IMG/VR virus record: IMGVR_UViG_2529292883_000004 | Location: 1 to 37,784 of that record | Origin: a virus | Taxonomy: Duplodnaviria > Heunggongvirae > Uroviricota > Caudoviricetes | Reading direction: 5' to 3' (one strand) | DNA length: 37,784 nt | In this document: in pieces, positions 3,596 through 33,262 of the stretch | Numbering within the stretch: the stretch's first letter is position 1 | Layout: each line of letters opens with the position of its first letter | Made by a program: the position numbers and the translations under genes | Notes under the pieces: model-generated | Told to the model about the DNA's origin: nothing | What the model saw: only the letters and a program-made list of their open reading frames with translations | The model's database searches: none

Positions 3596-6500
3596 TTAAA
3601 CCCAGACTGGATAACGCTCAGACAAGATGCTGAAATCGCTCAGGGATACGCAGTTATAAAACGCATCCGCGTAACTCGTCACGCCAGGCAACTTCTCAAT
3701 GAGCGCACATCCGCTTCCCTGCAATGACCGGCAGTTGTAAAAACAACGGTACACACTGGTTATTTGCGGGTACTCTTCCGCCGGGAGAATGTCATTCACA
3801 TCACTCTCCAGCCCTGTGCAACCGTAAAAGGTGCCCTCAAACGTCGTCGCACTGACGCACCCCGCAAACAAGCCGTCGCCCACAGTGGTCAGCCCCGTAC
3901 AACCGTTAAAGGTCTCTCTGAATGTTGTGACGCTGGCGAGTCCTGCAAACAGTCCGTCTGGTATCGTCATCAGCCCCGTGCAACCATCAAAGGTCTGATA
4001 GAACGATGTCACTCCGGTACAGTTTTCAAACAGCCCGGCAGGCAGCACCGCCAGCCCCGTACAGCCGTAAAAAGTCTGACTGAACGTGGTCACAGCAGTG
4101 TTGTTGTCAAACAACCCTTCCGGCAGTGTCTTCAGACCTGTACAGCCCCGGAACGTCCGGTAAAACGACGTCACACGGTTACAGTTATCAAACAATCCTG
4201 CAGGTAACATCGTCAGCCCCGTACAGCCGAAAAACGTATCCTGGAAAGACCCTGCGCTGACACAACGGTCAAATACCGCCTCAGGCACCGTCGTCAGGGC
4301 GGCACACCGGTAAAATGTCCGGTAGAAGGTTGTCACGCCGTGGCTGCTGTCAAACAGCCCTGCAGGTATTGCTGTCAGCTTCGTGCAGCCACTGAAAGTC
4401 TGATAGAACGACGTCACACCTGTACATCCGTCAAATACACTGTCTCCCAGCGTTGTCAGCTTCGTGCAGTCGTAAAATGTGCCTTCGAACGTCGATGCAC
4501 TGCTGCAGCCTGCAAACGCCCTTTCACCCACCGTTACCAGTTCCGTGCAGCCATAAAACGTCCGGAAGAAGGTCGTCACACGACTACAGTTTTCAAACAG
4601 CCCGGCAGGCAGCGCCTTCAGTCTCACACAGTCGCCAAAGGCATAACTGAACGTCGTCACAGAGACGCAGTTGTCAAACAGCCCTGCCGGTATCGCTGTC
4701 AGAGCCGTACAGCCATAAAAAGCACTACTGAACGTGGTCACGGCAGTGCAGCTGTCAAACATCCCTTCCGGCAATGCCGTCAGTCCCCTGCAGTTATAAA
4801 AAGCACTACTGAACGTCGTCACAGCAGTACAACCTGCAAACACTCCCTCTCCTATGGATGTCAGCCCCGTACAGCCGTAAAACGCCCGGTAGAACGTCGT
4901 AACACTGGTACATCCGGCAAACACGCCGTCTCCCACCGTTGTCAGCCCGGCACAACCATAAAAGGTGTCTTCAAACGTTGTGGCACTGACACAACCGGCA
5001 AACACATTGTCGCCCAGCGTTCTCAGCCCGGAACAACCGTAAAAGGTCCGCCTGAAGGTTGTCACACTTACACAGTCTGCAAACAATCCTGACGGTATCG
5101 CGGTCAGGCCCGTGCATTCGTAAAACGCCTCAAAGAAAGTGGTGACACTGGCGCTGTCAGCGAACAACCCTGCCGGTATCGTTGTCAGCCCCCGGCATCC
5201 CGAAAACACCCCCTCAAACGTCGTGGCACCGGTACAGTCTGCAAATAATCTGGCCGGTACCTCCGACAACCCGGTACATTCGCCAAAAGTCTTATAGAAA
5301 GACTTTGCTCCGGTACAACCGGAAAACAACTCTGCAGGAACTTCCGACAGACGGGTACAACGGTAAAATGTCGTATAGAACGTCGTGGCTCCGGTACAAT
5401 CTGCAAACAATTCCGGGGGGACCATTGCCAGTCCTGTACACCCCAAAAACGACCGGTAAAACGATCTGACACCCGAACAACCAGCAAACACGTCAGCCGG
5501 TATCGTGACCAGTCCGGTGCAACCTTCAAATAAGCTTGCGAATGTTGTGGTACCTGTACAACCAGCAAATACTCTGTCACCCACTGTTGTCAGTGCTCTG
5601 CACCCGTAAAACGCGCTGTCAAACGTCGTGACACTGGTGAGTTTTTCAAATAACCCTGCCGGTATCGTTACCAGCCCCGAGCATCCCGAAAACCCCCCCT
5701 CAAACGTCGCAACCTCTGTGCAGTTTGCGAACAATTTTGCCGGTATCGCTGTCAGGGCCGCGCAGCCATAAAACGTCCGGTTGAATGTCGTCACCCCGGT
5801 ACAACTGTCAAACAACCCTTCCGGTATTGCTGTCAGAGCCGTGCAGCCATAAAAGGCATTACTGAACGTGGTCACGGCAGTGCAGCTGTCAAACATCCCT
5901 TCCGGCAATGCCGTCAGTCCCCTGCAGTTATAAAAAGCCTGGAGGAATGTCGTCACCCCGGTGCAGTCTGCAAATATCCCCTGACCTAATGATGTCAGCG
6001 CCTGGCAGCCATAAAAGGCCTGCAAAAACGTTGTGGCACTGGCACATCCGGCAAACACGCTGTTACCCACCGTGCTCAGTTCCCTGCAGTTATAAAAGAC
6101 CCTGTAAAATGTTGTCGCACTGGTGCACCCGGCAAACACATGGTCCCCCACGGCGCTCAGTCCGGTACAACCATAAAAGGTATCCTCAAACGTCGTGGCA
6201 CCGGTGCACCCGGCAAACACGCTCTCACCCACCGCTCTCAGCCCGGTACAGCCGTAAAACGCCTGACGAAAAGTCGTTACGCCTGTGCAGCCGGCAAACG
6301 CGCTGTCACCGACTGCAGTGAGTCCCGTACATTCGTAAAATGCCTGATAGAACGTCGTGGCGCTGGCGCACTCAGCAAACAGCCCCGGAGGTATCGCAGT
6401 CAGTCCTTTACACCGGTAAAATGCACTGTCGAATGCCGTAGCGTTTTTGCAAAAACGGAATGCGCCGCTGTCAATACTCACCAGACTGGGGGTATTACTC

Positions 6501-7939
6501 GCAAGGTAGCTACAGGATTTTTGTCCCGCCGGAAGTTGACGTAGTCTGACCAGGTCGTTGTAAGCCGTGCTGCTGTACCCGTACACCCTGAACCTGACAC
6601 TCCCCGCCGTTCTCACCCTGATTGTCCGGAGCTCCCCGTCTGCCAGTGAGTCGGGTAACAGGATATTCGCCCAGCCCCCGCTGGTTGTCGTTTCAAGCTG
6701 GTCCGCAGCAACATATCCGTCGCCGAAGCTGACACGACAGTTCACCACATCAGCAACACTGACCAGCGCTTTTGACGATGAAGCACAGACCGAATCAAAA
6801 ACCGCCGGCACGTAACAGCTGACCTGTAATGTTGCCGTGTGTCCGCCGTCATTTGTCGTCACCGTCACCACCGCATCACCTTCGCTCACCCCGCACACGG
6901 TCAGTGAACTGTCGCTGTTGACCACCACCGACACCACGCTTTCATCGCTGACCGTCACAGTCCAGCTCCGGTCTTCAGCATTCTCCGGCCAGACATTCAC
7001 CGCAACCGCGACATGCTCATCATTATCAAGCTCCAGCTCAGTGACCGACAGGTTCACACCGCGCACACTCACGATTTTCCGCAGATTTATCACCTCACTG
7101 CGTACCGGTACTGTCACGTCATCCGGCATATCAACGGCAGCCTCTGCATACGCCGAATACCAGCCGTTCGCAAAATCATCATCCTCCATTTCATACGACC
7201 AGTGCCCTTCACTGTCCGTTGTCACTGTCGCCACATACCGCTGTCCCGACGCGGATTTGATGACAACATTCACCGTCCCCCCCGACACCACCACCCCCTC
7301 ATCTGCCGTGAGCGCACCGGAAAGAACGTGTGTGATGTTGTCCCACGCAATGCTCAGGGCGGCGCTGTACGATGACTGCCACTCAAACGTCACCAGCGTA
7401 TGCGCCGGGGCATAACGACGAAACAGGCACTCCAGGTACGCCCGTGAGGTGGTCACCTCATCCCCCGGCGGGGCCACCACCACGGTCCAGTTAAACCGGT
7501 TGTCGTCACTCAGCAGATGCCCGCTCCACGAAAATCCGCACAGTGGTGTGCGGTACTCACGGATAGTGATGCTGTACCCCATCGTCGCCGCAAGCTCCGT
7601 GAAATACGCCACACTCTGCCCGCCTGTCGACAGCAGTTTCGCCAGAATGAATTTTCTGGCCTGCGCCGGGTCTGTGGTGGATGCCTGCGTCCCGCATTCA
7701 TCATTCAGCCCCAGCGAGGCATACCACTCATCAGTGAGCGCATCCGCCGTTTCCGGGAAGGCGCCCGTTATCAGTGCGCACGCATCAGCGTCACTCTGCC
7801 GGTACGCCTGTGCCAGTCCGCGTATCAGCCTGTGCTGCACACTGTCAGGCAGACGGCTCCAGGCAATCCCTGACGGCAGAAGGTTCAGCATCGCGCGCGT
7901 GTAGTCATCATGTGAAAAACGACTCATCTTTTTCCTCAT
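3596..7939 (-). CDS. Giant baseplate-associated protein: Mu gp48/DUF2313-like N-terminal domain + Ig-like domain + ~30 x 27-aa Cys-containing LRR-like repeats
   Basis: 1447-aa ORF whose start overlaps the stop of the J-like gene (7936..7939). The N-terminal ~190 aa resemble Mu gp48-type baseplate proteins as recalled. An Ig-like stretch follows (VTVSDESVVSVVVNSDSSLTVCGVSEGDAVVTVTTNDGGHTATLQVSCY). Then a long array of 27-aa units with consensus about xVFAGCTGxTTFxxxFYGCTGLTxxGD, flavoured like BspA-type LRRs. Confidence 0.85.
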   Translation of the reverse strand: MRKKMSRFSHDDYTRAMLNLLPSGIAWSRLPDSVQHRLIRGLAQAYRQSDADACALITGAFPETADALTDEWYASLGLNDECGTQASTTDPAQARKFILAKLLSTGGQSVAYFTELAATMGYSITIREYRTPLCGFSWSGHLLSDDNRFNWTVVVAPPGDEVTTSRAYLECLFRRYAPAHTLVTFEWQSSYSAALSIAWDNITHVLSGALTADEGVVVSGGTVNVVIKSASGQRYVATVTTDSEGHWSYEMEDDDFANGWYSAYAEAAVDMPDDVTVPVRSEVINLRKIVSVRGVNLSVTELELDNDEHVAVAVNVWPENAEDRSWTVTVSDESVVSVVVNSDSSLTVCGVSEGDAVVTVTTNDGGHTATLQVSCYVPAVFDSVCASSSKALVSVADVVNCRVSFGDGYVAADQLETTTSGGWANILLPDSLADGELRTIRVRTAGSVRFRVYGYSSTAYNDLVRLRQLPAGQKSCSYLASNTPSLVSIDSGAFRFCKNATAFDSAFYRCKGLTAIPPGLFAECASATTFYQAFYECTGLTAVGDSAFAGCTGVTTFRQAFYGCTGLRAVGESVFAGCTGATTFEDTFYGCTGLSAVGDHVFAGCTSATTFYRVFYNCRELSTVGNSVFAGCASATTFLQAFYGCQALTSLGQGIFADCTGVTTFLQAFYNCRGLTALPEGMFDSCTAVTTFSNAFYGCTALTAIPEGLFDSCTGVTTFNRTFYGCAALTAIPAKLFANCTEVATFEGGFSGCSGLVTIPAGLFEKLTSVTTFDSAFYGCRALTTVGDRVFAGCTGTTTFASLFEGCTGLVTIPADVFAGCSGVRSFYRSFLGCTGLAMVPPELFADCTGATTFYTTFYRCTRLSEVPAELFSGCTGAKSFYKTFGECTGLSEVPARLFADCTGATTFEGVFSGCRGLTTIPAGLFADSASVTTFFEAFYECTGLTAIPSGLFADCVSVTTFRRTFYGCSGLRTLGDNVFAGCVSATTFEDTFYGCAGLTTVGDGVFAGCTSVTTFYRAFYGCTGLTSIGEGVFAGCTAVTTFSSAFYNCRGLTALPEGMFDSCTAVTTFSSAFYGCTALTAIPAGLFDNCVSVTTFSYAFGDCVRLKALPAGLFENCSRVTTFFRTFYGCTELVTVGERAFAGCSSASTFEGTFYDCTKLTTLGDSVFDGCTGVTSFYQTFSGCTKLTAIPAGLFDSSHGVTTFYRTFYRCAALTTVPEAVFDRCVSAGSFQDTFFGCTGLTMLPAGLFDNCNRVTSFYRTFRGCTGLKTLPEGLFDNNTAVTTFSQTFYGCTGLAVLPAGLFENCTGVTSFYQTFDGCTGLMTIPDGLFAGLASVTTFRETFNGCTGLTTVGDGLFAGCVSATTFEGTFYGCTGLESDVNDILPAEEYPQITSVYRCFYNCRSLQGSGCALIEKLPGVTSYADAFYNCVSLSDFSILSERYPVWV
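3784..6440. repeat. Imperfect tandem array of 81-bp coding repeats (about 30 units) inside the giant gene
   Basis: An 81-nt periodicity is visible in the DNA (recurring gtacagccgtaaaa-like cores) and as a 27-aa periodicity in the protein. Boundaries are approximate. Confidence 0.8.
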
Positions 7940-10112: not shown

Positions 10113-11197
10113 GACGACACATCCCTTCCGGCCACGCCGGAATAAAAACGGTACGGCTGCACGCTGAACGCCTCCGGCGGCATCAGGACCAGCGATGCCG
10201 TGGTCCCCGTCTCATCGTCACGGCTGAACGTCACCTCAGAGACCAGCCAGTTCAGACTGTCCGCCCTCAGTGCCGGTATGCTCACCGGCACAAAGGTGTT
10301 GGGCTGCCACAGCGCCCCCGCACTGTCACGCCAGCTGTCCACCGTCACATTCAGGGACACTGAACGCCCGTAGCGCCGGTTCATCTCCCAGTTCACCGCC
10401 TGCTGTGCGCACCCCGTCGTCATCAGCGTGCTCTCCACTATCGTCACGTGACGACGGGTGCGCATACTGACGGCTTCCGGGTCACGGGCCGTCGCCAGCA
10501 GCACGCTGTCATAACCGGATGCCGGTGACAGCTCGCTGAGGCTGTTTACCGACACCGACAGGCCGGTGTATTCCGAAAACCGTTCATTCATGCTTCGTGT
10601 GTACTCCGCCTTCTGCAGGTTCACCCCCTGCGTCACCCCGCTGGCTGCCGACGCCGTTCCTGCCCGCGTCAGGAACAGGCTGCCATCCGGCAGGTCGTAA
10701 TACAGCAGCCCCTCATACCGGCAGATGCGGTCGATGATTTGCTGCGACGACTCCCCCCAGTTGATGACAAAATCCGGCACCGTGGTGAAACTGTCGATGT
10801 CTGTCGTCACCGTGATGCCGTACACCGACGCCAGTTTTCTGATGATGGCCAGCGCATCGCCGCCCTTTATCATGTTGTTCTCCCACCAGGCTGCGCAGTC
10901 CACAAGGTCCTGGCACATTCCCCTGCCCGTCACCCGGATATCATGCGACTGCGGCGTCAGGGTGTTCACCCACTGGTCGACATAGCCGGTCATCACCCGG
11001 TCATCACCAATGGATATCGTGCAGCTGCTCCCCGGCGGGGCCAGCTGAAAGCCCTCCTGCGGATACCAGTCCGTCAGCGAAAGCTCAAAATCCGACGGCA
11101 GGCGCTCAATACCCCGCGTCACCCGGATATGGCTCCACCCCGACATGACGGTGTTGTTCACCTTCAGCGTCAGGGTGTCATCTGTGGTTGTACTCAT
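10109..11197 (-). CDS. Baseplate hub / tail protein (Mu P, gp44-like; P2 gpD-like)
   Basis: 362 aa, translationally coupled between the N-like and V-like genes. Assignment is mainly by synteny. Confidence 0.55.
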   Translation of the reverse strand: MSTTTDDTLTLKVNNTVMSGWSHIRVTRGIERLPSDFELSLTDWYPQEGFQLAPPGSSCTISIGDDRVMTGYVDQWVNTLTPQSHDIRVTGRGMCQDLVDCAAWWENNMIKGGDALAIIRKLASVYGITVTTDIDSFTTVPDFVINWGESSQQIIDRICRYEGLLYYDLPDGSLFLTRAGTASAASGVTQGVNLQKAEYTRSMNERFSEYTGLSVSVNSLSELSPASGYDSVLLATARDPEAVSMRTRRHVTIVESTLMTTGCAQQAVNWEMNRRYGRSVSLNVTVDSWRDSAGALWQPNTFVPVSIPALRADSLNWLVSEVTFSRDDETGTTASLVLMPPEAFSVQPYRFYSGVAGRDVSS

Positions 11198-12600
11198 GTG
11201 TTTCTCGCTGTGAAGGAAAGCGGCATGAACGCCGGATGGACGGGAGAGACCGCCTGTACCAGCTCGTCCGCACGCGCGGCGTCCTGATACAGCCGGTTTG
11301 CCAGCGCCAGCGACGGCTGCGGTGAGCGGCTGGTCACCTTCATCACCTCCTGTTGTGACAGATAATTCGTCTGCCAGTGGGTGACAAACTGCGTGTACTG
11401 CGCATTCAGCGCGTCATAACTGTCGTCATCCGTACGGTCAGCCAGTAACAGCAGGACGGTTTCCGTCACCGTGCGGGCTTTCCGCATCACCAACACCGCG
11501 TCGTCGTGACCACGGGGGGAATACTGCATCAGCCGCCACAGCATCGCTCCGGCCCCCAGTGTGCGGATAAGGGCCTGCACCGCCGCAGAGATGGCATTTG
11601 CCGCCTCCCCTTCGTAATACTTCCCGTCTTCCGCCGACGCAATCTCTGCCATGACGCGGATTTTCTCCGTGTCGCTGCCCGTGGCCTCCGCCAGAGTGAT
11701 AATGACCGCCTGTATCGCGGACACTGCACCGGACACGGATGTGATATCCTCCAGCACCGCTGTCGCCGACTCCGCCGCCGACCGGTCCTGCACGGAGCAG
11801 GCCTGAATGGTTTCCAGGATACTGTCATCATCCGCATCCGTGGTGGCAAGCCACGTTGAAAGCGACGAGGCCGTGCTGCCCGACGGCGTGTCACTGCCCC
11901 GACAGTAACGCCCGTAACTGTCCGGGGCATACAGTGATGACACCGTGCTGGTCATGCTGGTCACCGATGTCACCGCCCGCGAAAATATCGTCTTCCACGC
12001 GCTCACCGTGCTCTTTATCGTTTTTACCGCGCCGGTGACACTGTTCATCTCACCGGTAATCGCCGCCAGCGTCACGGTGGCCGTTGTGGTCAGCGTCTGA
12101 TACCACGTCTCCGATGACGTGGAGGTTGTCCCCGTCACCAGCGAAAACGCTTTTTCCCCTGACTCAATGACCGTGAGCGTGAACGAAAACACACGCCCGG
12201 ACTCCACGCCCTCCTCAATACGCAGCCCGCCGTCCGGGACATACACCGTCATCTCACCCAGAGTCGGATGGACCAGCAGACCTCCGCCGGATGTTTCACA
12301 GGCCGCCACCAGGGCATCCCGCTGACTGAACACATCCCCCGCGCTGTACACCAGACTGTCCTGTATCAGGAACCCGCGCAGTGTGAACTTCCGGGTGGCG
12401 CGCCCCAGGTCTTCCACCCAGACCGTATCGCGGTACGGGTATTCATGCACCGCCACCCGGCGACCATACACCCCCTCTCCGGCAATCACGCCGAACGGCA
12501 CGCCACAAAATGACGCCTGGTGAATATGCGACTGCCACTCCCACCCGCCGGAGGAAGACAGCCCCAGGGCGGATGACACCGCGTCTGTGATAATGCCCAT
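11194..12600 (-). CDS. DNA circularization protein N (Mu gp43-like) tail protein
   Basis: Start chosen at the ATG at 12600 (MGIITDAVS...) with a GAGGAG RBS 6 nt upstream; the ORF-track start at 12618 is that RBS itself. N-terminal region resembles the Mu N family as recalled. Confidence 0.65.
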   Translation of the reverse strand: MGIITDAVSSALGLSSSGGWEWQSHIHQASFCGVPFGVIAGEGVYGRRVAVHEYPYRDTVWVEDLGRATRKFTLRGFLIQDSLVYSAGDVFSQRDALVAACETSGGGLLVHPTLGEMTVYVPDGGLRIEEGVESGRVFSFTLTVIESGEKAFSLVTGTTSTSSETWYQTLTTTATVTLAAITGEMNSVTGAVKTIKSTVSAWKTIFSRAVTSVTSMTSTVSSLYAPDSYGRYCRGSDTPSGSTASSLSTWLATTDADDDSILETIQACSVQDRSAAESATAVLEDITSVSGAVSAIQAVIITLAEATGSDTEKIRVMAEIASAEDGKYYEGEAANAISAAVQALIRTLGAGAMLWRLMQYSPRGHDDAVLVMRKARTVTETVLLLLADRTDDDSYDALNAQYTQFVTHWQTNYLSQQEVMKVTSRSPQPSLALANRLYQDAARADELVQAVSPVHPAFMPLSFTARNT

Positions 12601-12610
12601 CTTCTGCTCC

Positions 12611-14569
12611 TCACACATTCATCGCCGTGACCACCGCGCCCCCCTTCACCGTCCGGCGGGTTGTCTGCCCCGTGGCGGTGTTGGTGACGTTAATGTCCAG
12701 CCGGATTTTGTTTTCGCTGAAACCGCGACTGATTTCATCCCGCACGTCAGTCCCTGAACTGCCGGACTGCGGCATGATGATGCTGCCGCCGGATACCTGC
12801 GACATGTACCTGAACACCTTCGGCGAGTAGGTCTGTGTCTCCTGTGGCATCCCCTTCTGTCCGCGAAGCCAGGCGCTCATATTGCCTTCGCCCCAGTTGT
12901 AAGCCTGAAAGGCGCGCTGCATATCACCACCATACTGCGCCATCAGCCCCGCCAGTTTTCTGGCCGCTGCCTCCGAGGCCCGGTAAGGGTTGAATACATC
13001 CATACCGGAAAGGCCATACTCCCGGGCCGTCGGGTCAATGAACTGAAACATCCCCTTTGCCGTGCCGTAACGGGTGAGCGGCCCGACAGCATCCGCCCGC
13101 CCGGAAGACTCCGTCATGGCCAGACCGTACAGCGTGTTTTCCGGCAGGTTGTACTGCTTCTCCAGCGCCGCAAAATGCGCCCGCAGTTCAGGGGTGATAT
13201 CACGACCACCGGCACCGTTTTTTTGTGGTGACGTGACCTGTGACAGGGCCGGAGACACCATAACTTTCGACAGATCGTCATTCAGCATCGTGGTAAGCGC
13301 ATTCAGTCTGTCGGACCGCTGACCGGACAGACGCGTGTGCATCTCCAGGAGATCTGATGTCGCGATATTGTTATCGAGATTGTATCTTTGCCGGGACGTC
13401 AGTGATTTCAGTTGCTCCGGATGGGCATACAGATAACCGCGCAGCTCTGACAGACGGTCACCCGTTTTCTGCTGACTGCTGCGCTGACCGGTCAGGACAT
13501 CGGTCGCCCAGTCCACGGAGGCGGTGACAGCATCACTGCCCAGTACCTTCGCCTTCATCCTGCCGGTGAAACCATCCCACGCGGCTGACAGACGGTTCAG
13601 GTTGCTGTTGGCCTGAACCAGCTTCGCATTCAGACTGTCCGGCATCGACAGCCCCAGACGATCGGACTCCGCCAGCGCCGCATTCAGGTTTTTCGTTCCC
13701 CGCAGCAGCGCCAGTTGTGCATCCGACAGCCCCAGCGCGTCCGCCACCACCTTCTGCGACGAACTGTTCAGTCGCCCGAAGGCATCAATCAGGTTCTGCG
13801 TGCTCTTTTCCAGGTTCACCGTGTGGTCGCTGTTCTCCGCCAGCTTCACACCAAACTGGTTAAGAATGCCCGTGACCTCCGGTGAACGGGTGTTCAGCGC
13901 ATCGTTCAGTGTCGTGAACAATGCACCGGTCTCCGCCTGTGCCTGATCTGCCGACAGGCCCATCAGACGGAACACCCCGGCAAAGCGGCTGAACGCACTC
14001 ACGCTCATTCCGGCGTTCCTTGCGTTCACATCCAGGCTGTATGCCGCTTTCGAAGCATCATAAAGATTACTGACGACCGCCTTCACCGCCATGCCACCGC
14101 CAGCGACCGCAAGCCCCGCAAGACCTCCGCGCCCCAGCGCACTGAACAGCTCTGATGACAGTGCCCCGACATTGCGCAGCGGCGGCACAATATCCCCGAA
14201 ATGCTGTGACGTGTCCTTCCCCAGCCGGGACAGCCGTTCAAAATATCCGGACATCCTGTCCGCATTCTCCTGACTCTCCCTTCCCAGCACCCTGTTACCC
14301 GCCCTGTCTGTGGCCAGCAGCGCGTTCATCAGTAGCGTAACCGAATCGTGGATCTGCGTTATCTTCCCGCCCAGCGCATCCGCCGCACCGGATGCCCCCT
14401 TCAGGGGCATTTCATTTACCGCATCAAGCCCGTCACACAGTTCTGACACGCAGGCCGCCGCCTGCCCTGCGCGACCTGCCAGCGAACCGGCAGCCTCTGA
14501 GGCTCTCAGTAAAAGCGCATCCGCGTTACCCTTTGCATTCAGCTCAAAAACAAAAGCATTACCCGCCAT
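12611..14569 (-). CDS. Tail tape measure protein with C-terminal lytic transglycosylase (SLT) domain
   Basis: Long Ala/Leu/Gly-rich helical protein. The C-terminal part carries an SLT-like signature (GLAMTESSGRADAVGPLTRYGTAKGMFQF...AYNWGEGN). ATG at 14569 has a GAGGAG RBS 5 nt upstream; the ORF-track start is a GTG at 14575. Confidence 0.8.
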   Translation of the reverse strand: MAGNAFVFELNAKGNADALLLRASEAAGSLAGRAGQAAACVSELCDGLDAVNEMPLKGASGAADALGGKITQIHDSVTLLMNALLATDRAGNRVLGRESQENADRMSGYFERLSRLGKDTSQHFGDIVPPLRNVGALSSELFSALGRGGLAGLAVAGGGMAVKAVVSNLYDASKAAYSLDVNARNAGMSVSAFSRFAGVFRLMGLSADQAQAETGALFTTLNDALNTRSPEVTGILNQFGVKLAENSDHTVNLEKSTQNLIDAFGRLNSSSQKVVADALGLSDAQLALLRGTKNLNAALAESDRLGLSMPDSLNAKLVQANSNLNRLSAAWDGFTGRMKAKVLGSDAVTASVDWATDVLTGQRSSQQKTGDRLSELRGYLYAHPEQLKSLTSRQRYNLDNNIATSDLLEMHTRLSGQRSDRLNALTTMLNDDLSKVMVSPALSQVTSPQKNGAGGRDITPELRAHFAALEKQYNLPENTLYGLAMTESSGRADAVGPLTRYGTAKGMFQFIDPTAREYGLSGMDVFNPYRASEAAARKLAGLMAQYGGDMQRAFQAYNWGEGNMSAWLRGQKGMPQETQTYSPKVFRYMSQVSGGSIIMPQSGSSGTDVRDEISRGFSENKIRLDINVTNTATGQTTRRTVKGGAVVTAMNV

Positions 14570-14722
14570 CGCCACTCCTCAGCCTGTTGATCCGCTCTGC
14601 CTGCGACGACCACCAGAGAATTTCCCCTGACGTCAGCCCCCACGCCTCGCGCGGGGACCAGTGAAAGAACCACGTCAGTTCAGCCGCCCTCGCCTGCCAC
14701 TGGCTCAGGCCTCCAGGAAAAA
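14559..14722 (-). other. Putative -1 programmed frameshift site (T TTT TTC) and ~60-codon extension of the chaperone (GT-like product)
   Basis: The minus-strand heptamer T-TTT-TTC (plus coordinates 14716..14722) lies in the chaperone zero frame (ggt ttt ttc). The -1 frame then stays open for about 60 codons (FFPGGLSQWQARAAELTWFFHWSPREAWGLTSGEILWWSSQAERINRLRSGDGG) and stops at 14559..14561, overlapping the tape measure start. Confidence 0.6.
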
Positions 14723-14986
14723 ACCCGTCAGGAACCGCTCACACTTTTTGTAATCGGACACCGCCATGAATTTCAGCGGGGCAGACGGCACGCCCGCCAC
14801 TGCCGCAATCAGCTCACGCATGGCCGCCATTGCGCCCAGTGAGGCGGTATTGCGGTGAAAGTCCTCCGCCTGGAACAGCACCGGCTCTTTCAGGCGAAGC
14901 TCACGGAACTCCGTCCTGGTATCCGGATCCCTTACCGGACGCTTCAGGGTCACCACCAGTTCTTCGGTCTGTTTCTCATTCATCAT
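14705..14986 (-). CDS. Tail assembly chaperone (G-like; Mu gp41-like)
   Basis: 93-aa ORF immediately upstream of the tape measure gene. Carries a canonical slippery heptamer near its 3' end (see next feature). Confidence 0.7.
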   Translation of the reverse strand: MMNEKQTEELVVTLKRPVRDPDTRTEFRELRLKEPVLFQAEDFHRNTASLGAMAAMRELIAAVAGVPSAPLKFMAVSDYKKCERFLTGFFLEA

Positions 14987-15354
14987 CAGCTCTCCGTCAC
15001 TTCCTGCCCTTCAAAACGGGCCGTAAAGGTTGCATCGTTGTTGTCTGTCTCAATCCGGCCAGTCAGCCACATGTTCTGACCGAGAATGGTCTTGCCGTTC
15101 ACCAGATAGGCCGCCACCGTCACATCCGTATATGCCGCAAAATCCTTCAGTGACAGTGAGCCGGAATCACGCACCGTCATCTCGATAAACGGCGCTTTGT
15201 ACGACTCCTTAAAGCCATGTATGCCGCTCATCCCCGTGAGCGTTTCACGCTCGATTTCACCCACGGAATATCTGAACGTTCCGGCCACATTGACCGACAC
15301 GCCGTCAATCGTCACGGTACAGGTGCCCGCTAACGCGTTCTGACTCATCATCAT
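14986..15354 (-). CDS. Tail tube protein (Mu gp40/M-like)
   Basis: 122 aa, immediately downstream of the sheath gene; size and position typical for a myovirus tube protein. Confidence 0.65.
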   Translation of the reverse strand: MMMSQNALAGTCTVTIDGVSVNVAGTFRYSVGEIERETLTGMSGIHGFKESYKAPFIEMTVRDSGSLSLKDFAAYTDVTVAAYLVNGKTILGQNMWLTGRIETDNNDATFTARFEGQEVTES

Positions 15355-15390: not shown

Positions 15391-16893
15391 TTAATCGCTG
15401 CGGCTGTTCAGCCTGAACTGGTTCAGCACCGCAAAGATGCGTAACTGGTTCATCAGGCGGCCCGGCCACACCACGTTCACGCGGTTCGGGTTGTCACTGT
15501 CACGCTCAACCACCACCTGCTCCGCAAACGCATCCGCATTCTGCACGTAGCCGTTGCTCGCCAGCGTCCGGAACCGGGCGATCAGCTCAGCACGAATAAT
15601 CGCAGGTGTGGCTATCGCAGCCCCTGCCGGAATATTCGCGTCGTCATCTGCCAGCTTCATCCGTCCAAACTTCGAGGTCACCTGTGTGCGCATGTCGCGG
15701 CATACATACATCAGCGTGTACATCGTCTCGATCTGCAGGTAGCTGTCGTCTGCCGCACCGTATCGGTTGGTCTGGTACGTGGTGATGGTATTCTCAAGCG
15801 TCACCGTATCGTCGTCCGACACCGTGAAGGTTGAGATACCGCTGTAGAGAAGCGTGTTCCGCTCCGTCAGGGTGAAACGGCTTGCCAGCGGCGGGGCCAG
15901 CACACCGGATACCGGCAGCGTCTGGGTGGGTCTCGCCGGATCGTTGCGGACCGACTGCGCCAGCGCCCCCACCATCGCGGCGGCATAGTCATATGAGGTG
16001 TTCGGACCGTCATACACGCCCCAGAGTGTCATGTGCTGGTCGTTGCGGCGCTCTCCCTTGTCTGCCAGCTCGCCATAGCTGCCGTTTGCCGCCGTGAAGG
16101 CATGGCCGTAAATTTGTTTGTCCCACGCCCAGCGACCTTCGTCATCCGACAGAAAATCCTTCATGTCGTTGAGCGATGTGGTGTCGGAATACGCCAGGAC
16201 AATGAAATCAAACGTGCGGTCGCCCAGAGAGGCGAGCGCATCCGCAAGGTCCGGCGCACCCTCCCCGCCACTCATCGCCGTGATGGTCAGCGTCAGGCCG
16301 TCCGGGGTGGACTCGCCGCCGGATGACCCGAGATAGTTCAGCCGGATATCAATGGTGTTTCCCGTCTCACCGGCATTTCTGGCCGTAAGCTCAACGGTCG
16401 TGCCATCACGGGGCACGGAGGCCGTCACCGGCAGCCCGGAGGTGGCGTTGATTCTGTCTGCCAGCAGACTGGCAATCTCTGCCCGCGTGTACGCTGGCTT
16501 CACCGTCAGGCGCACGCGGGTGCCTGCGATGTACAGGTAAATGATGCCGGATGCCGTCGACACACTGTCAACAGATATACTGCCTGTGGCCGTCGTCATG
16601 CTGCTGTCATCATCTGCCAGCGGCAGCAGCCAGGTCTCTCCGTAGCTGTCATTTTTAAGGTAGGCCATCAGCATGGTATGCAGCATGGAGCCTTCCCCGC
16701 ACAGCCCGGCAGCCATGGAGGCCGATGAACAGCGGTATGCCGTCCCTGCCGTGGCCGTTCCCGCAGCCGTCATCTGACCAATCAGCAGGGTGCGCTGCGT
16801 CTCCGTGGCGCTGTTCGCCATTGAGTTGTCCACTTCAACATAGAACAGTGGCACACGGAGATTTGACGGGATATTGCTGAACGATACCGTCAT
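15391..16893 (-). CDS. Tail sheath protein (Mu gp39/L-like)
   Basis: 500 aa with an N-terminal MTVSFSNIPSNLRVPLFYVEVDNS-type motif as in contractile tail sheaths; followed by tube and chaperone. Confidence 0.8.
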   Translation of the reverse strand: MTVSFSNIPSNLRVPLFYVEVDNSMANSATETQRTLLIGQMTAAGTATAGTAYRCSSASMAAGLCGEGSMLHTMLMAYLKNDSYGETWLLPLADDDSSMTTATGSISVDSVSTASGIIYLYIAGTRVRLTVKPAYTRAEIASLLADRINATSGLPVTASVPRDGTTVELTARNAGETGNTIDIRLNYLGSSGGESTPDGLTLTITAMSGGEGAPDLADALASLGDRTFDFIVLAYSDTTSLNDMKDFLSDDEGRWAWDKQIYGHAFTAANGSYGELADKGERRNDQHMTLWGVYDGPNTSYDYAAAMVGALAQSVRNDPARPTQTLPVSGVLAPPLASRFTLTERNTLLYSGISTFTVSDDDTVTLENTITTYQTNRYGAADDSYLQIETMYTLMYVCRDMRTQVTSKFGRMKLADDDANIPAGAAIATPAIIRAELIARFRTLASNGYVQNADAFAEQVVVERDSDNPNRVNVVWPGRLMNQLRIFAVLNQFRLNSRSD

Positions 16894-19313: not shown

Positions 19314-19715
19314 TCACGGTACCGTGACCGGATTGCGCAGAAAGATTTTCTCTTTCTCCAGCGCCACGCTCAGATCATCAATGTCCCAGCTTTCATCAAA
19401 AATCACCCGGTTTGCGTTGAACTCACCCATCAGGTAGACACCGGCCAGCACATCACCGGACGAGGCATCCGCCATGTCCGCCAGAATCGCCACCGGCGTT
19501 TCGCTGCCGTCCGTCACGCCTGCCCCCTGCTTGCAGAGGGTGTACGCCCCACTTTCCGTGATGCGCCCCAGCACCGTACCGCGCTGATACACCTCGCCAC
19601 CAGTGATGGTCACAGTTTTTGTGACCACCTGAAGCGGTCCGCACAGCAGCTGGTCCGGCTGGTATGCACCGGACCAGTAACCCGGTACCGACGGGTTGTT
19701 TCCGTATGTGCTCAT
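19314..19715 (-). CDS. Head decoration protein (lambda gpD-like)
   Basis: 133 aa between the scaffold and capsid genes; the ...VAILADMADASSGDVLAGVY... pattern resembles the gpD family as recalled. Confidence 0.7.
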   Translation of the reverse strand: MSTYGNNPSVPGYWSGAYQPDQLLCGPLQVVTKTVTITGGEVYQRGTVLGRITESGAYTLCKQGAGVTDGSETPVAILADMADASSGDVLAGVYLMGEFNANRVIFDESWDIDDLSVALEKEKIFLRNPVTVP

Positions 19716-20293
19716 TGCGCTTTACCTCCCGTCGCCTCGTTGTACAGTTTCATGGCGTGCTGTGCCATCGCGTGCGCCTCCGTCGGTGCAGGGCGGACAT
19801 CACGTCCGGTTCCCGGCTGTGGTACATGCTGCATACGGGAAGTCAGTCCGCCTTTCTGGCCTGCGCCCCCTGCCACCGCCGCTTTCATCACGGCTCTGGC
19901 CTGTTTCACACTCATGCGGGTGTTGAAGGCCAGCTCTGCGGCAAGGGCCGGATTTTTCGCTGCATACGGCGTGGCGAAGATGGCTGCGCAGCGATGACGT
20001 TCGCTGGCGCGGGCCTTTTCTTCGTCATCGTCGTCTTCTGCGTTTTCATCGTCGTCGTTATCGTCATCATCCGCACGGGAGCGCGCCTTACGGCTTTCGC
20101 GGCAGTTTTCGTCGTCATCCGCCTGTCCGTCGTCGTCGTTATCGTCGTCATCCGCACGGGAGCGCGCCTTACGGCTTTCGCGACGATCCTCGTCATCCTC
20201 CGCATTCTCCCCGTCGCGTTTGTCCTCCGGATCGTCATCCATTCGCGAACGACCGCCCATGCCTACCAGGTGCATGAAAGAAAATTTACCCAT
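19712..20293 (-). CDS. Putative head scaffolding protein with acidic repeat region
   Basis: 193 aa, translationally coupled to the protease gene (8-nt overlap). Highly acidic N-terminal half containing the duplicated RESRKARSRADDDDNDDD unit; helical Ala-rich C-terminal half. Confidence 0.5.
   Translation of the reverse strand: MGKFSFMHLVGMGGRSRMDDDPEDKRDGENAEDDEDRRESRKARSRADDDDNDDDGQADDDENCRESRKARSRADDDDNDDDENAEDDDDEEKARASERHRCAAIFATPYAAKNPALAAELAFNTRMSVKQARAVMKAAVAGGAGQKGGLTSRMQHVPQPGTGRDVRPAPTEAHAMAQHAMKLYNEATGGKAQ
20051..20182. repeat. In-frame 81-bp tandem duplication inside the scaffold gene
   Basis: Core gtcgtcgttatcgtc(a/g)tcatccgcacgggagcgcgccttacggctttcgcg occurs twice with an 81-bp period. 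Confidence 0.75.
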
Positions 20294-25821: not shown

Positions 25822-26025
25822 TCACGTTTCATCAGACAATAACGCAACCAGATGGCAGGTCGCCTCCTTATTGAGAGGGAACACGAGCGTTTCACCTCCT
25901 GTGCGGTGGATATACAATGTCCTGCCCCCGGATTCATCTCTTTCAACATCAAGATATGAAACAACGGGGCGGCATATCGCTATGCCGCGTTCGCTAATGT
26001 GAGTTTTGTTTATGAGGTTATTCAT
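25822..26025 (-). CDS. Hypothetical small protein
   Basis: 67-aa ORF with no recognisable motif; orientation matches the late operon. Coding status uncertain. Confidence 0.25.
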   Translation of the reverse strand: MNNLINKTHISERGIAICRPVVSYLDVERDESGGRTLYIHRTGGETLVFPLNKEATCHLVALLSDET

Positions 26026-26110
26026 GGGAATACTCTCCGAATTAAATACACTTCTGGAAAAGATACCACTCTGAAAAAAACTTCAGTCAGTCCCACAGGA
26101 AATAGAAGAT

Positions 26111-26302
26111 TTGAAGCGAAGAGTTGCTGAACTGGAATCGAACCATTGTTCTGCAACCAGCGCACAATTCTGTCCCAAATGCCAAAGAGCGTCTTTTCAG
26201 CTCGACAGAACTGAAAATGATCCAACATTTGGAGTATTAGGCCTTCAGCGGGACATTTATGTTTGCAGAGAGTGTGGTTACTCTCGCCATGAATCACGTT
26301 AA
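26111..26302 (+). CDS. Hypothetical small zinc-ribbon protein (CxxC...CxxC), opposite strand to the late operon
   Basis: 63-codon ORF with a TTG start and paired CxxC motifs (CPKC ... CREC). It overlaps a minus-strand ORF of odd composition. Only one of the two is likely real. Confidence 0.3.
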   Translation: MKRRVAELESNHCSATSAQFCPKCQRASFQLDRTENDPTFGVLGLQRDIYVCRECGYSRHESR

Positions 26303-26350
26303 TAAAAACGCTGCTGGCACGTTCTTTCTTCAGGGCAGCAATGCCCTGCA

Positions 26351-27016
26351 TCACTTCGCCGTCTTTAAAGCCTGTTCAAGCACCACACTCAGCTCCGTCT
26401 TCATGAGACGCGATGCCATGTTGTGCGCCAGCGCCTGATAACCCAGTACCGGCGTGACCGGCAGTGCATCACCAAAACGTATCAACAGCTTTGGTGAGCG
26501 GCTTTTTTTGCGGGGAGCGCGTGTGCCATTGGGGGAGCGTTTTCTCCGCTTCCTGGTTTTTGCCACTTTTTTCGCTTTCTTACGCTGCCAGACGCCACCA
26601 ACATCCTCACCATAGTTGTTCGTCACCTTACCGATGAACACATCCGGTCTGGCCTTCAGCTGTTGCAGTTTTGCCTTTGGCAGGTTGCCGTATTTGTTCA
26701 GCCGGATATTTTTCGGGTTCAGTACAGCTTTCTGCCCCTCACCGAGATAATGCAGCCCGCCCACCTCAAAGGGTTCAAGGTAAGGCACGGCGGTATCCAT
26801 GATGAACACCCGACCGGTCAGATTGTCCCTTGTTGCCCCTTTTGAGCGCACCGAGTTCACGGTGAACGGCGTCGGGTTATCCAGCTTCCGGCGAAGGTTT
26901 TCTTTCTCTGCCGCTTCAATTTTTCTCACCGTGGCAGTGATGGCGCGCGCAGTGGCAAAACGCACCTGCTTCTGCATTCCCAGAAGCTGTCTGTGAAGGT
27001 CGTTAAGGTCAGCCAT
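26351..27016 (-). CDS. Hypothetical protein with a strongly basic K/R-rich C-terminal segment
   Basis: Start chosen at the ATG at 27016 (MADLNDLHRQ...) with an AGGTGG RBS. Contains KKAKKVAKTRKRRKRSPNGTRAPRKKSRSPK. No family recognised. Confidence 0.55.
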   Translation of the reverse strand: MADLNDLHRQLLGMQKQVRFATARAITATVRKIEAAEKENLRRKLDNPTPFTVNSVRSKGATRDNLTGRVFIMDTAVPYLEPFEVGGLHYLGEGQKAVLNPKNIRLNKYGNLPKAKLQQLKARPDVFIGKVTNNYGEDVGGVWQRKKAKKVAKTRKRRKRSPNGTRAPRKKSRSPKLLIRFGDALPVTPVLGYQALAHNMASRLMKTELSVVLEQALKTAK

Positions 27017-27083
27017 ATTCCACCTTCTCATGCTGCATTATCGCAGCCCCTCACTGAAGGGCTGCCCGGATTAACCAGCAGAA

Positions 27084-30487: not shown

Positions 30488-30562
<75 letters not shown>

Positions 30563-30565
30563 ATA

Positions 30566-30641
<76 letters not shown>

Positions 30642-32988: not shown

Positions 32989-33146
32989 AATGACACCCTC
33001 TGATGGTTTCTTAATAACTCACCACCGACGACGCCAATCGTCTGGTGGTGAACTGTGCAGGGTTGGCGTAACCGGGAAACCGACCGGCGCGGATCTCTCC
33101 GCCCCCACACAGCCCACCATAATTCAGATGTGCGCGTGCATACGAC

Positions 33147-33172
33147 AATAAAAAACACGCTCGCGGCGTGTA
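33147..33172 (-). terminator. tR'-like rho-independent terminator just downstream of the late promoter
   Basis: Minus strand acacgc-cgcga-gcgtgt followed by tttttatt, about 60-70 nt downstream of the candidate pR'. Confidence 0.55.
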
Positions 33173-33231
33173 TCTGTCGCGGTCTCTATCCAGGACGCCA
33201 ATCCCGACGCCAGATTTTGCTGGCGCGTGAG

Positions 33232-33262
33232 GAATATAGCCCCGGACAATGTGTCTGGTCAA
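33232..33262 (-). promoter_or_regulatory. Candidate late promoter pR' (with presumed Q-utilisation region) directly after Q
   Basis: Minus strand TTGACC (plus 33257..33262), 18-19 nt spacer, TATATT (plus 33232..33237), beginning 5 nt after the Q stop codon. Confidence 0.45.

What the first reader, a model, noticed from the sequence alone, without database searches (positions are those of the whole stretch)
14559..14986. Canonical -1 programmed frameshift site in the tail assembly chaperone
The slippery heptamer T-TTT-TTC sits in the zero frame 4 codons before the chaperone stop. The -1 frame then stays open for about 60 codons with protein-like composition and ends overlapping the tape measure start. 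This is the conserved G/GT arrangement and supports the annotation of the flanking genes.
Basis: seen in the sequence. Interest (0 to 1): 0.5.

Follow-up and report, generated by a model that had tools for sequence, protein, structure and literature searches.

The report
Tail chaperone -1 frameshift site (P2-type)
This E. coli prophage carries the standard slippery-sequence trick by which tailed phages make a short and a long version of their tail assembly chaperone from one gene; it is real and conserved but ordinary, although databases do not annotate the long product.

Summary
On the minus strand a 93-aa tail assembly chaperone gene (14986..14705, Pfam Phage_TAC_7) lies between the tail tube gene and the tape measure gene. 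An in-frame T_TTT_TTC (14723..14717) sits 3 sense codons before its stop, overlapped by a second in-frame heptamer, G_GGT_TTT. The -1 frame then runs 52 codons to a TAA (14561..14559) that overlaps the tape measure start.

The heptamer and the open frame alone are not beyond chance: TTTTTTC occurs 17 times in the window, and 3 of 31 other in-frame heptamers have an equally long -1 frame. Three other results make the case:
- **Homology:** the -1 peptide resembles the P2 E' domain, and the profile alignment to P2 E+E' puts the two slip sites in register.
- **Conservation:** T6N is kept at the same codon position in all 98 related loci, down to about 38% identity, including at synonymous sites.
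- **Coding signature and access:** the -1 ORF varies by codon position like a coding sequence, and in this window it has no start codon.

The predicted products, 93 and 142 aa, match P2 E and E+E' (91 and 142 aa). This is a new, unannotated member of a known kind. It is closest to P2 E/E+E' rather than Mu, which shifts by -2. The frameshift itself was not demonstrated here.

The parts
14986..15354 (-). Tail tube gene (122 aa). Its TGA stop (14988..14986) overlaps the chaperone ATG by one base.
   Evidence: Pfam PF10618 Tail_tube, E=1.5e-33; ORF list; sequence.
14705..14986 (-). Zero-frame tail assembly chaperone ORF, 93 aa (92 aa if the second ATG at 14983 is used). It is the equivalent of P2 gpE and lambda gpG.
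   Evidence: Pfam PF10109 Phage_TAC_7, 29.7 bits against a cut-off of 25. phrog_166 'tail protein', E=1.1e-14. The exact sequence is in public databases as 'phage tail assembly protein', seen on 117 contigs.
14717..14726 (-). Slippery tract G_GGT_TTT_TTC: two overlapping in-frame heptamers, G_GGT_TTT (14726..14720) and T_TTT_TTC (14723..14717). This is the proposed site of the -1 shift.
   Evidence: T6N is invariant at this position in 69 of 69 non-redundant relatives. The preceding codon always ends in T (GGT, AGT, TCT or CGT) and the Phe codon is always TTT. Closer relatives carry T_TTT_TTT or GTT_TTT_TTC.
14559..14717 (-). -1 frame extension (E'-like): 52 codons plus the TAA stop (14561..14559). 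It has no ATG, GTG or TTG anywhere in the open -1 frame.
   Evidence: Pfam PF06528 Phage_P2_GpE, E=9e-4 and 19.2 bits, below the cut-off of 23. phrog_10636, E=1.7e-10. 28 plausible homologue clusters, after setting aside 2 repeat proteins from the 30 hits, in a library of 1.84 billion proteins. Entropy by codon position is 0.61/0.53/1.13.
14559..14986 (-). Predicted frameshift fusion CDS, join(14986..14717, 14717..14559). The product is 142 aa and reads ...KKCERFLTGFF|PGGLSQWQ...RSGDGG.
   Evidence: Built. It is the same length as P2 gpE+E' (142 aa). The exact fusion sequence is absent from a collection of 15 billion proteins and is not annotated in RefSeq or GenBank relatives.
12611..14575 (-). 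Tape measure gene with a C-terminal lytic transglycosylase domain. The start is ATG 14569 (preceded by GAGGAG at 14580..14575) or GTG 14575. It overlaps the end of the -1 ORF by 11 or 17 nt.
   Evidence: Pfam SLT, E=3.7e-19, and a weak PhageMin_Tail match. RefSeq start in the relative L001. Sequence.

Best explanation
**What it is.** This is the tail assembly chaperone frameshift cassette of a contractile-tailed E. coli prophage. The prophage has a lambda-type head module and a tail module with Mu-like gene order.

**How it most likely works.**
- Most ribosomes translate the 93-aa chaperone and stop at TGA 14707..14705.
- A minority slip back one base on the tract G_GGU_UUU_UUC. Most likely this happens with tRNA-Phe in both the P and A sites on U_UUU_UUC.
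- Those ribosomes read 52 further codons in the -1 frame and finish at a TAA inside the first codons of the tape measure gene. The result is a 142-aa fusion protein.

**Proposed function.** By analogy with lambda gpG/gpGT and P2 gpE/gpE+E', the shared N-terminal part would coat the tape measure protein. The rare C-terminal E'-like domain would recruit tail tube subunits. The fixed shift frequency would then set the ratio of the two products. Neither product is expected in the mature virion.

**Shown here:** the anatomy of the site, the homology of both parts, and the conservation of the slip site and of the -1 coding sequence.

**Inferred:** that the shift occurs, that it is ribosomal, its frequency, and the binding partners.
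For: 1. **Position.** The ORF pair lies between the tube and tape measure genes.
2. **In-frame heptamers.** U_UU.U_UU.C belongs to the H_HH.U_UU.Y class, which is among the most efficient -1 motifs measured in E. coli. R_RR.U_UU.Y motifs, which include G_GG.U_UU.U, are also shift-prone (PMC4066793).
3. **Homology.** The N-terminal part matches PF10109 above the cut-off. The -1 part matches PF06528 at E=9e-4 and phrog_10636 at E=1.7e-10, and its homologues pass the PF06528 cut-off. hhalign against P2 E+E' gives E=1.4e-5 across both parts with the slip sites aligned.
4. **Same dimensions and junction as P2.** The products are 93/142 aa here against 91/142 aa in P2. In both, the stop of the -1 ORF overlaps the tape measure start, and most relatives share P2's ATGAGTAA junction.
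5. **Conservation.** All 98 related loci keep an in-frame T6N or T7 at the homologous codon position, with TAC identity to the window from 100% down to 32-46%. Nucleotide-level selection is visible in the 69 non-redundant sequences. The preceding codon is GGT, AGT, TCT or CGT (and GAT, GTT or TGT in L098-L100) and never ends in another base. The Phe codon is TTT in 69 of 69, although TTC is used freely four codons upstream.
6. **Coding signature.** Entropy by codon position in the -1 extension is 0.61/0.53/1.13, against 0.66/0.55/1.23 in the zero-frame part. Third-position variation is damped only in the short doubly coding overlap.
7. **No independent access.** The -1 ORF has no ATG, GTG or TTG in this window. 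A start codon at or before codon +8 is missing in 29 of 67 relatives, whereas the slip site is never missing.
Against: - No protein or ribosome data exist for this element, so the shift is inferred.
- There is no stimulatory RNA structure 3' of the site. The local fold scores z=+0.46, and the consensus fold over 15 diverged relatives has 2 pairs and -0.7 kcal/mol. This is also reported for P2 (PMC3091744). It means efficiency cannot be argued from structure.
- The SD-like GAGG found 11-12 nt upstream in 60 of 62 relatives with T6G or T6A is missing in this clade, which has GAGCGG or GAACGG.
- The window's own -1 peptide scores below the Pfam gathering cut-off (19.2 against 23 bits).
- The heptamer and a 52-codon open -1 frame are each common by chance.
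- A slip on either heptamer, or insertion of one U by RNA polymerase, would give the identical protein. The exact event therefore cannot be read from the sequence.
Confidence: 0.85

Rival explanations
1. Transcriptional slippage. RNA polymerase occasionally adds one extra U while copying the T6 run. A fraction of mRNAs then encodes the 142-aa fusion directly, and ribosomes do not shift.
For: The shift site is a homopolymer run. Closer relatives carry T7 runs (L098, L100 and L099), which slip more readily. One inserted U gives exactly the same protein (derived from the sequence). PMC4066793 notes that UUUUUUU is under-represented in E. coli genes in all frames, possibly because of transcriptional slippage.
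Against: From my own knowledge of the slippage literature, not tested here, efficient slippage by E. coli RNA polymerase generally needs runs of about 8-9 or more. The run is exactly six T's in 69 of 69 non-redundant relatives and never drifts longer in the T6G/A clades. In all cases the run keeps the X_XXY_YYZ codon register. The homologous sites in P2 and Mu are annotated as translational frameshifts. In relatives, an SD-like element sits at the spacing known to stimulate ribosomal -1 shifting.
Confidence: 0.07
2. The -1 ORF is an independent small gene, translated from its own start and not fused to the chaperone.
For: Gene callers have often called this frame as a stand-alone protein of 36-82 aa in other genomes. 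phrog_10636 is a family of such calls. 38 of 67 relatives have an ATG, GTG or TTG at or before codon +8.
Against: In this window the whole open -1 frame holds no ATG, GTG or TTG. Start codons in relatives are sporadic, whereas the slip site is universal. The P2 homologue is made as a fusion (PMC3091744).
Confidence: 0.03
3. Chance or relic. The heptamer and the open -1 frame are coincidental or no longer used, and only the 93-aa chaperone is made.
For: In-frame slippery heptamers occur about once per 310 codons in this window. 3 of 31 others are followed by an equally long open -1 frame. No stimulatory element was found in this clade.
Against: The homology of the -1 peptide to the E' family, the fixation of synonymous sites in the heptamer and the coding-type codon-position pattern across relatives at about 38-100% identity are not compatible with chance. 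Even the decayed copy in Serratia symbiotica keeps the site and the ORF.
Confidence: 0.03

Closest known systems
Bacteriophage P2 gpE / gpE+E' (-1 frameshift at T_TTT_TTG in the FETUD tail operon; Christie et al. 2002, cited through PMC3091744 and GenBank AF063097)
   Same: - The ORF pair lies between the tube gene (FII) and the tape measure gene (T).
- The slip is by -1 on a T6N heptamer at a Gly-Phe-(Leu/Phe) position near the end of the short ORF.
- Product sizes are 91/142 aa in P2 and 93/142 aa here.
- The E' stop overlaps the tape measure start.
- No 3' RNA structure is present.
- The Pfam families are the same, PF10109 plus PF06528, and hhalign gives E=1.4e-5 with the slip sites aligned.

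   Different: - The last base of the heptamer is C, not G, so the zero-frame residue is Phe, not Leu.
- An extra overlapping G_GGT_TTT heptamer is present.
- Only 3 codons, rather than 6, separate the heptamer from the stop.
- Sequence identity to P2 is only about 20%.
- The surrounding tail module has Mu-like gene order (DUF2635, sheath, tube, chaperone, tape measure with SLT domain, DNA circularisation protein), not the P2 order.
Phage lambda gpG / gpGT (-1 frameshift at G_GGA_AAG)
   Same: The logic is the same: a short abundant chaperone and a rare frameshift-extended form made from one start, encoded between the major tail gene and the tape measure gene. A 30:1 ratio is needed for tail assembly. 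The extension binds the tail shaft subunit, and neither product is in the virion (PMC5009743).
   Different: The heptamer and the tRNAs involved differ. Lambda has a non-contractile tail. I did not compare lambda gpG or gpGT with this protein directly, and the Pfam scans of the chaperone and the fusion returned only PF10109 and PF06528.
Phage Mu gp41 / gp41-42 tail assembly chaperone (-2 frameshift)
   Same: The tail module has the same gene order. The Pfam description of PF10109 names Mu protein 41 alongside P2 E.
   Different: Mu shifts by -2 on a G-rich site. In this window the -2/+1 frame is closed by stops. The Mu fusion protein shows no detectable similarity to this family profile (hhalign probability 0.1%).
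Citrobacter phage phiNP and Serratia phage vB_SspM_BZS1 (the nearest isolated phages)
   Same: The fusion protein is about 43% identical by tblastn, matched in two pieces in two frames. Gene order is the same. The in-frame heptamers are T_TTT_TTG (phiNP) and T_TTT_TTA (BZS1), each followed by a 51-54-codon -1 ORF.
   Different: Their GenBank records annotate only the short chaperone. The BZS1 paper does not mention a tail frameshift (PMC7556043). They carry the SD-like GAGGA upstream, which this window lacks.

Membership tests
Tailed-phage tail assembly chaperone frameshift pair (G/GT type, Xu-Hendrix-Duda 2004) | Two overlapping ORFs lie between the major tail (tube) gene and the tape measure gene. 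| tested here: met
   Tube 15354..14986, chaperone 14986..14705, -1 ORF to 14559, tape measure from 14569/14575.
Tailed-phage tail assembly chaperone frameshift pair (G/GT type, Xu-Hendrix-Duda 2004) | [quoted passage not shown] | tested here: met
   T_TTT_TTC and G_GGT_TTT are in X_XXY_YYZ register, 3-4 codons before the stop.
Tailed-phage tail assembly chaperone frameshift pair (G/GT type, Xu-Hendrix-Duda 2004) | The downstream ORF has no initiation site of its own and can be reached only by shifting. | tested here: met
   There is no ATG, GTG or TTG in the 59-codon open -1 frame of the window.
Tailed-phage tail assembly chaperone frameshift pair (G/GT type, Xu-Hendrix-Duda 2004) | The shift site and both reading frames are conserved among relatives. 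| tested here: met
   All 98 related loci keep the site, and the -1 ORF shows coding-type variation by codon position.
Tailed-phage tail assembly chaperone frameshift pair (G/GT type, Xu-Hendrix-Duda 2004) | A fusion protein is made at a low fixed ratio and is needed for tail assembly. | not testable with these tools
   This needs protein detection and genetics.
P2 gpE / gpE+E' family | The N-terminal domain belongs to Pfam PF10109 (Phage_TAC_7). | tested here: met
   29.7 bits against a cut-off of 25, E=6.4e-7. All 13 aligned relatives match, with a best E-value of 3.9e-11.
P2 gpE / gpE+E' family | The -1 extension belongs to Pfam PF06528 (Phage_P2_GpE). | tested here: inconclusive
   The window peptide scores 19.2 bits, E=9e-4, below the cut-off of 23. 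Its homologues P0025, P0027 and P0035 score 23.9-28.8 bits, above the cut-off. hhalign against P2 E+E' aligns the E' part.
P2 gpE / gpE+E' family | The shift is by -1 on T_TTT_TTG. | tested here: not met
   The heptamer here is T_TTT_TTC. 59 of 69 non-redundant relatives have T_TTT_TTG, 3 have T_TTT_TTA and 7 have T_TTT_TTC. The direction (-1) and the position are the same.
P2 gpE / gpE+E' family | The end of the E' frame overlaps the tape measure start, and the products are about 91 and 142 aa. | tested here: met
   The overlap is 11 nt and the products are 93 and 142 aa. In P2 the overlap is 8 nt and the products are 91 and 142 aa.
Mu gp41 / gp41-42 chaperone | The shift is by -2 into the +1 frame on a G-rich site. 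| tested here: not met
   The +1/-2 frame after the chaperone has stops, while the -1 frame is the open and conserved one. The Mu shift is annotated as -2.
Mu gp41 / gp41-42 chaperone | Detectable sequence similarity to the Mu gp41 fusion protein. | tested here: not met
   hhalign probability 0.1%, E=0.6.

The most novel reading that the evidence does not exclude
The Escherichia clade that includes this window has re-tuned the signal. The wider family uses U_UUU_UUG or U_UUU_UUA together with an SD-like GAGG 11-12 nt upstream, where the Glu codon is fixed as GAG. This clade instead uses Phe-Phe heptamers (U_UUU_UUC here, U_UUU_UUU or a U7C run in relatives at 71-80% identity). Those are intrinsically shiftier in E. 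coli. The window's closest relatives have also lost the SD-like element and gained an overlapping G_GGU_UUU. If true, this would be a natural case of compensatory evolution between the slippery motif and a 5' stimulator that holds the chaperone ratio constant. The U7 variants might also contribute through transcriptional slippage.
Probability: 0.2. Interest if true: 0.35.

Novelty: new member of a known kind. Interest (0 to 1): 0.2.

Why it matters
The main value is for annotation. The 142-aa fusion product is missing from RefSeq and GenBank records of this prophage lineage and of its nearest isolated phages. It is also absent from a collection of 15 billion proteins, and gene callers elsewhere mis-call the -1 frame as stray small ORFs.

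The finding also confirms the identity of the neighbouring tube, chaperone and tape measure genes. It adds a family with Mu-like gene order and a P2-type -1 signal to the catalogue of chaperone frameshifts. The family offers a natural series of heptamer variants (U6G, U6A, U6C and U7, with or without an upstream SD-like element) that could be used to study how frameshift efficiency is tuned. It does not change the understanding of the mechanism.

Tried and rejected
- **3' stimulatory RNA structure: none found.** The 57 nt after the heptamer fold no better than shuffled sequence (z=+0.46). The strong hairpin in the 97-nt fold starts about 55 nt downstream, which is too far away, and the whole fold scores z=-1.5. 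RNAalifold over 15 diverged relatives gives only 2 invariant pairs.
- **Similarity to the Mu gp41 fusion: none**.
- **Near-identical DNA in the phage collection: none**. Only two phages match at protein level.
- **Word-index protein searches.** The fusion query returned only 7 close short chaperones. The -1 peptide query returned nothing. The full HMMER search was needed to find homologues.
- **Two hits set aside.** P0022 and P0041 are tandem-repeat proteins that match through many weak stretches.
- **Solved structures.** The only hit was a chloroplast PSRP-3 protein at E=0.0035, which I treated as chance.
I did not model the two halves separately.
- **The P2 frameshift paper (PMC135442) is not held**. 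P2 facts come from the GenBank record and from PMC3091744.
- **The GGAGG just 3' of the heptamer** is not conserved even within the clade (GGAAG in L004 and L016), so I rejected it as a signal.
Full report
**1. What is in the sequence**

The genes of this region lie on the minus strand. The ORF list and Pfam scan give this order:
- tail sheath, 16893..15391 (PF04984, PF17482)
- tail tube, 15354..14986 (PF10618, E=1.5e-33)
- a 93-aa ORF, 14986..14705, that matches PF10109 'Phage tail assembly chaperone proteins, E, or 41 or 14' (29.7 bits, cut-off 25)
- a 654-aa tape measure protein with an SLT lytic transglycosylase domain, 14575..12611
- a DNA circularisation protein, 12618..11194

Read on the minus strand, the end of the chaperone is CTG ACG GGT TTT TTC CTG GAG GCC TGA. 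T_TTT_TTC (14723..14717) is therefore in X_XXY_YYZ register, three sense codons before the stop. It is overlapped by a second in-frame heptamer, G_GGT_TTT.

The -1 frame is open for 59 codons, 52 of them after the slip point. It ends at TAA 14561..14559, inside the first codons of the tape measure gene. That gene starts at ATG 14569 with GAGGAG five bases upstream; this is the start RefSeq uses in relatives. A slip on either heptamer, or an extra U in the mRNA, gives the same 142-aa product...KKCERFLTGFFPGGLSQWQ...RSGDGG.

**2. Is it more than chance?**

On its own it is not.
- TTTTTTC occurs 17 times in the window.
- 35 minus-strand ORFs that I picked as likely genes hold 33 in-frame X_XXY_YYZ heptamers in 10,213 codons.
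- 3 of the 31 heptamers outside this site are followed by a -1 frame open for 52 codons or more.

The claim had to be tested through homology and conservation.

**3. Homology of the -1 peptide**

- The 52-residue extension matches Pfam PF06528 (Phage_P2_GpE, the E' part of P2 gpE+E') at E=9e-4. At 19.2 bits this is below the gathering score of 23.
- It matches phrog_10636 at E=1.7e-10.
- A full HMMER search of 1.84 billion representative proteins found 30 hits at E<=1e-3. Two are repetitive proteins that I set aside. Most of the rest are 36-82-aa stand-alone calls of the same frame in other genomes, many beginning with the 'FF' read from the T-run. One is a 134-aa fused form.
- Three of these homologues pass the PF06528 cut-off.
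- A profile of 13 reconstructed fusion proteins aligns with P2 gpE+E' over 124 columns (hhalign E=1.4e-5, probability 80%). The alignment spans both parts and puts the Gly-Phe-Leu/Phe slip positions in register.
- The products are 93 and 142 aa here and 91 and 142 aa in P2. In both, the -1 stop overlaps the tape measure start.

**4. Conservation**

The region is 93-97% identical to prophages in 8 of 5,426 complete E. coli genomes. Scans with a chaperone alignment brought in 10 genomic and 80 viral loci from Edwardsiella, Salmonella, Providencia, Kluyvera, Citrobacter and Serratia. To these I added the phages phiNP and BZS1 and three relatives at 71-80% identity.

Every locus keeps an in-frame T6N or T7 at the homologous position, followed by a 51-55-codon -1 ORF. 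There are two apparent exceptions:
- L078 has an N in the assembly directly after TTTTTTG.
- L014 is a decayed copy in Serratia symbiotica that still has TTTTTTA and the -1 ORF.

Among 69 non-redundant sequences:
- The Phe codon is TTT in 69 of 69.
- The preceding codon is GGT, AGT, TCT or CGT, so it always ends in T.
- The last base of the heptamer is G in 59, C in 7 (this clade only) and A in 3.

In the three closer relatives the preceding codon is GAT, GTT or TGT.

Entropy by codon position in the -1 extension is 0.61/0.53/1.13. In the zero-frame chaperone it is 0.66/0.55/1.23. The -1 ORF therefore evolves as a coding sequence in that frame.

The open -1 frame has no ATG, GTG or TTG in the window. 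Start codons are sporadic in relatives.

**5. Mechanism**

The best explanation is a programmed -1 ribosomal frameshift of the P2 E/E+E' type.

In E. coli the H_HH.U_UU.Y heptamers, which include U_UU.U_UU.C, are among the most efficient -1 motifs. UUY A-site codons shift better than UUA or UUG. R_RR.U_UU.Y motifs such as G_GG.U_UU.U are also shift-prone (PMC4066793). The tract in this window should therefore be at least as slippery as the P2-type T_TTT_TTG.

No 3' stimulatory structure exists, either locally or as a conserved fold. The same is reported for P2 (PMC3091744).

In 60 of 62 relatives with T6G or T6A there is an SD-like GAGG 11-12 nt upstream. The Glu codon at that position is always GAG, against a GAG:GAA ratio of 242:170 elsewhere in these genes. 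This points to a 5' stimulator like the one I recall for E. coli dnaX (my own knowledge, not tested here). The window's clade lacks it, with GAGCGG or GAACGG instead.

The functional reading comes from lambda and P2. The abundant short form and the N-terminal part of the long form coat the tape measure protein. The rare extension recruits tube subunits. Neither form is in the virion (PMC5009743; P2 GenBank notes). That step is an inference and was not tested here.

**6. Rivals**

- *Transcriptional slippage* on the T-run would give the same protein, and it gains some weight from the T7 runs in close relatives. Against it, the run is exactly six T's in all 69 other sequences, and the homologous sites in P2 and Mu are annotated as translational.
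- *Independent translation of the -1 ORF* is excluded in this window by the lack of any start codon.
- *Chance* is excluded by sections 3 and 4.

**7. Comparison with what is known**

The element works like lambda G/GT and is a diverged member of the P2 E/E+E' family. It is not of the Mu type:
- Mu's chaperone shifts by -2.
- The -2/+1 frame here is closed by stops.
- The Mu fusion protein has no detectable similarity to this family profile.

Only the gene order of the tail module is Mu-like. The head module is lambda-like, with gpA terminase, a lambda-family portal and an S49 protease.

**8. Novelty and verdict**

The frameshift is a textbook feature. What is new is small:
- The long product is not annotated in RefSeq or GenBank for this lineage or for its nearest phages.
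- The exact fusion sequence is absent from a collection of 15 billion proteins, while the short form is present on 117 contigs.
- This clade uses a Phe-Phe heptamer variant (U6C or U7) rather than U6G.

I rate it a new member of a known kind, of low interest (0.2). Confidence that a frameshift fusion is made and used is about 0.85.

Noticed in passing
window 26363-26369 (minus strand), genes 27031..26351 and 26354..26022: An in-frame T_TTA_AAG lies 3 codons before the stop of a 226-aa hypothetical gene. U_UU.A_AA.G is listed among the most efficient E. coli -1 motifs in PMC4066793. Its -1 frame is the frame of the next 110-aa hypothetical gene, which overlaps it by 4 nt, so a slip would fuse the two products. 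Neither protein has a Pfam match, and RefSeq calls both hypothetical. Conservation of the heptamer was not tested.
   Followed up: partly
window 26073-26079 and 12638-12644 (minus strand): Two more in-frame heptamers near gene ends have long open -1 frames. TTTTTTC lies 16 codons before the stop of gene 26354..26022, with 83 open codons. GGGGGGC lies 8 codons before the tape measure stop, with 50 open codons that are not in the frame of the next gene. Both are probably chance.
   Followed up: no
related loci L005-L094; window 14734-14739: An SD-like GAGG/AGGAG lies 11-12 nt upstream of the T6G or T6A heptamer in 60 of 62 non-redundant relatives. The Glu codon there is fixed as GAG, against GAG:GAA of 242:170 elsewhere. 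The window's clade has GAGCGG or GAACGG instead. This may be a 5' frameshift stimulator that this clade has lost.
   Followed up: partly
L098, L099, L100 (relatives with 71-80% chaperone identity): The slip site is a T7 run in these loci: GAT_TTT_TTT, TGT_TTT_TTT or GTT_TTT_TTC. The E'-like -1 ORF of 52-55 codons is conserved. Runs of this length are more prone to transcriptional slippage and to indel mutation.
   Followed up: partly
L078 (IMG/VR) and L014 (Serratia symbiotica): L078 has an N inserted directly after TTTTTTG, which artificially fuses the two frames. This looks like an assembly or 'frameshift correction' artefact. L014 is a chaperone pseudogene with an upstream frame disruption that still keeps TTTTTTA and the -1 ORF.
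   Followed up: yes
window 30488-30641 (minus strand): Two adjacent tRNA genes lie inside the prophage: tRNA-Gly(TCC) and tRNA-Thr(TGT).
   Followed up: no
window 33041-33239 and 605-688: Rfam matches above gathering score: isrK Hfq-binding RNA (33150-33226), C4 antisense RNA (33041-33124, with a second copy at 605-688) and its a1/b1 target (33187-33239). From my recollection this resembles the phage P1/P7 antisense-RNA immunity module; I did not test that.
   Followed up: no
window 4593-6381 (ORF 7939..3596) and 20025-20203 (ORF 20293..19712): Arrays of 81-nt (27-aa) tandem repeats run through the 1,447-aa ORF downstream of the baseplate genes, which is presumably a tail fibre or other large repeat protein. 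Two copies of an 81-nt repeat lie in a very acidic 193-aa ORF between the S49 protease gene and the next ORF downstream, 19715..19314.
   Followed up: no
protein library hits P0023-P0051: Gene callers in many genomes have called the E'-like -1 frame as stand-alone 36-82-aa proteins that start at fortuitous codons. This is a systematic mis-annotation of the frameshift extension.
   Followed up: partly
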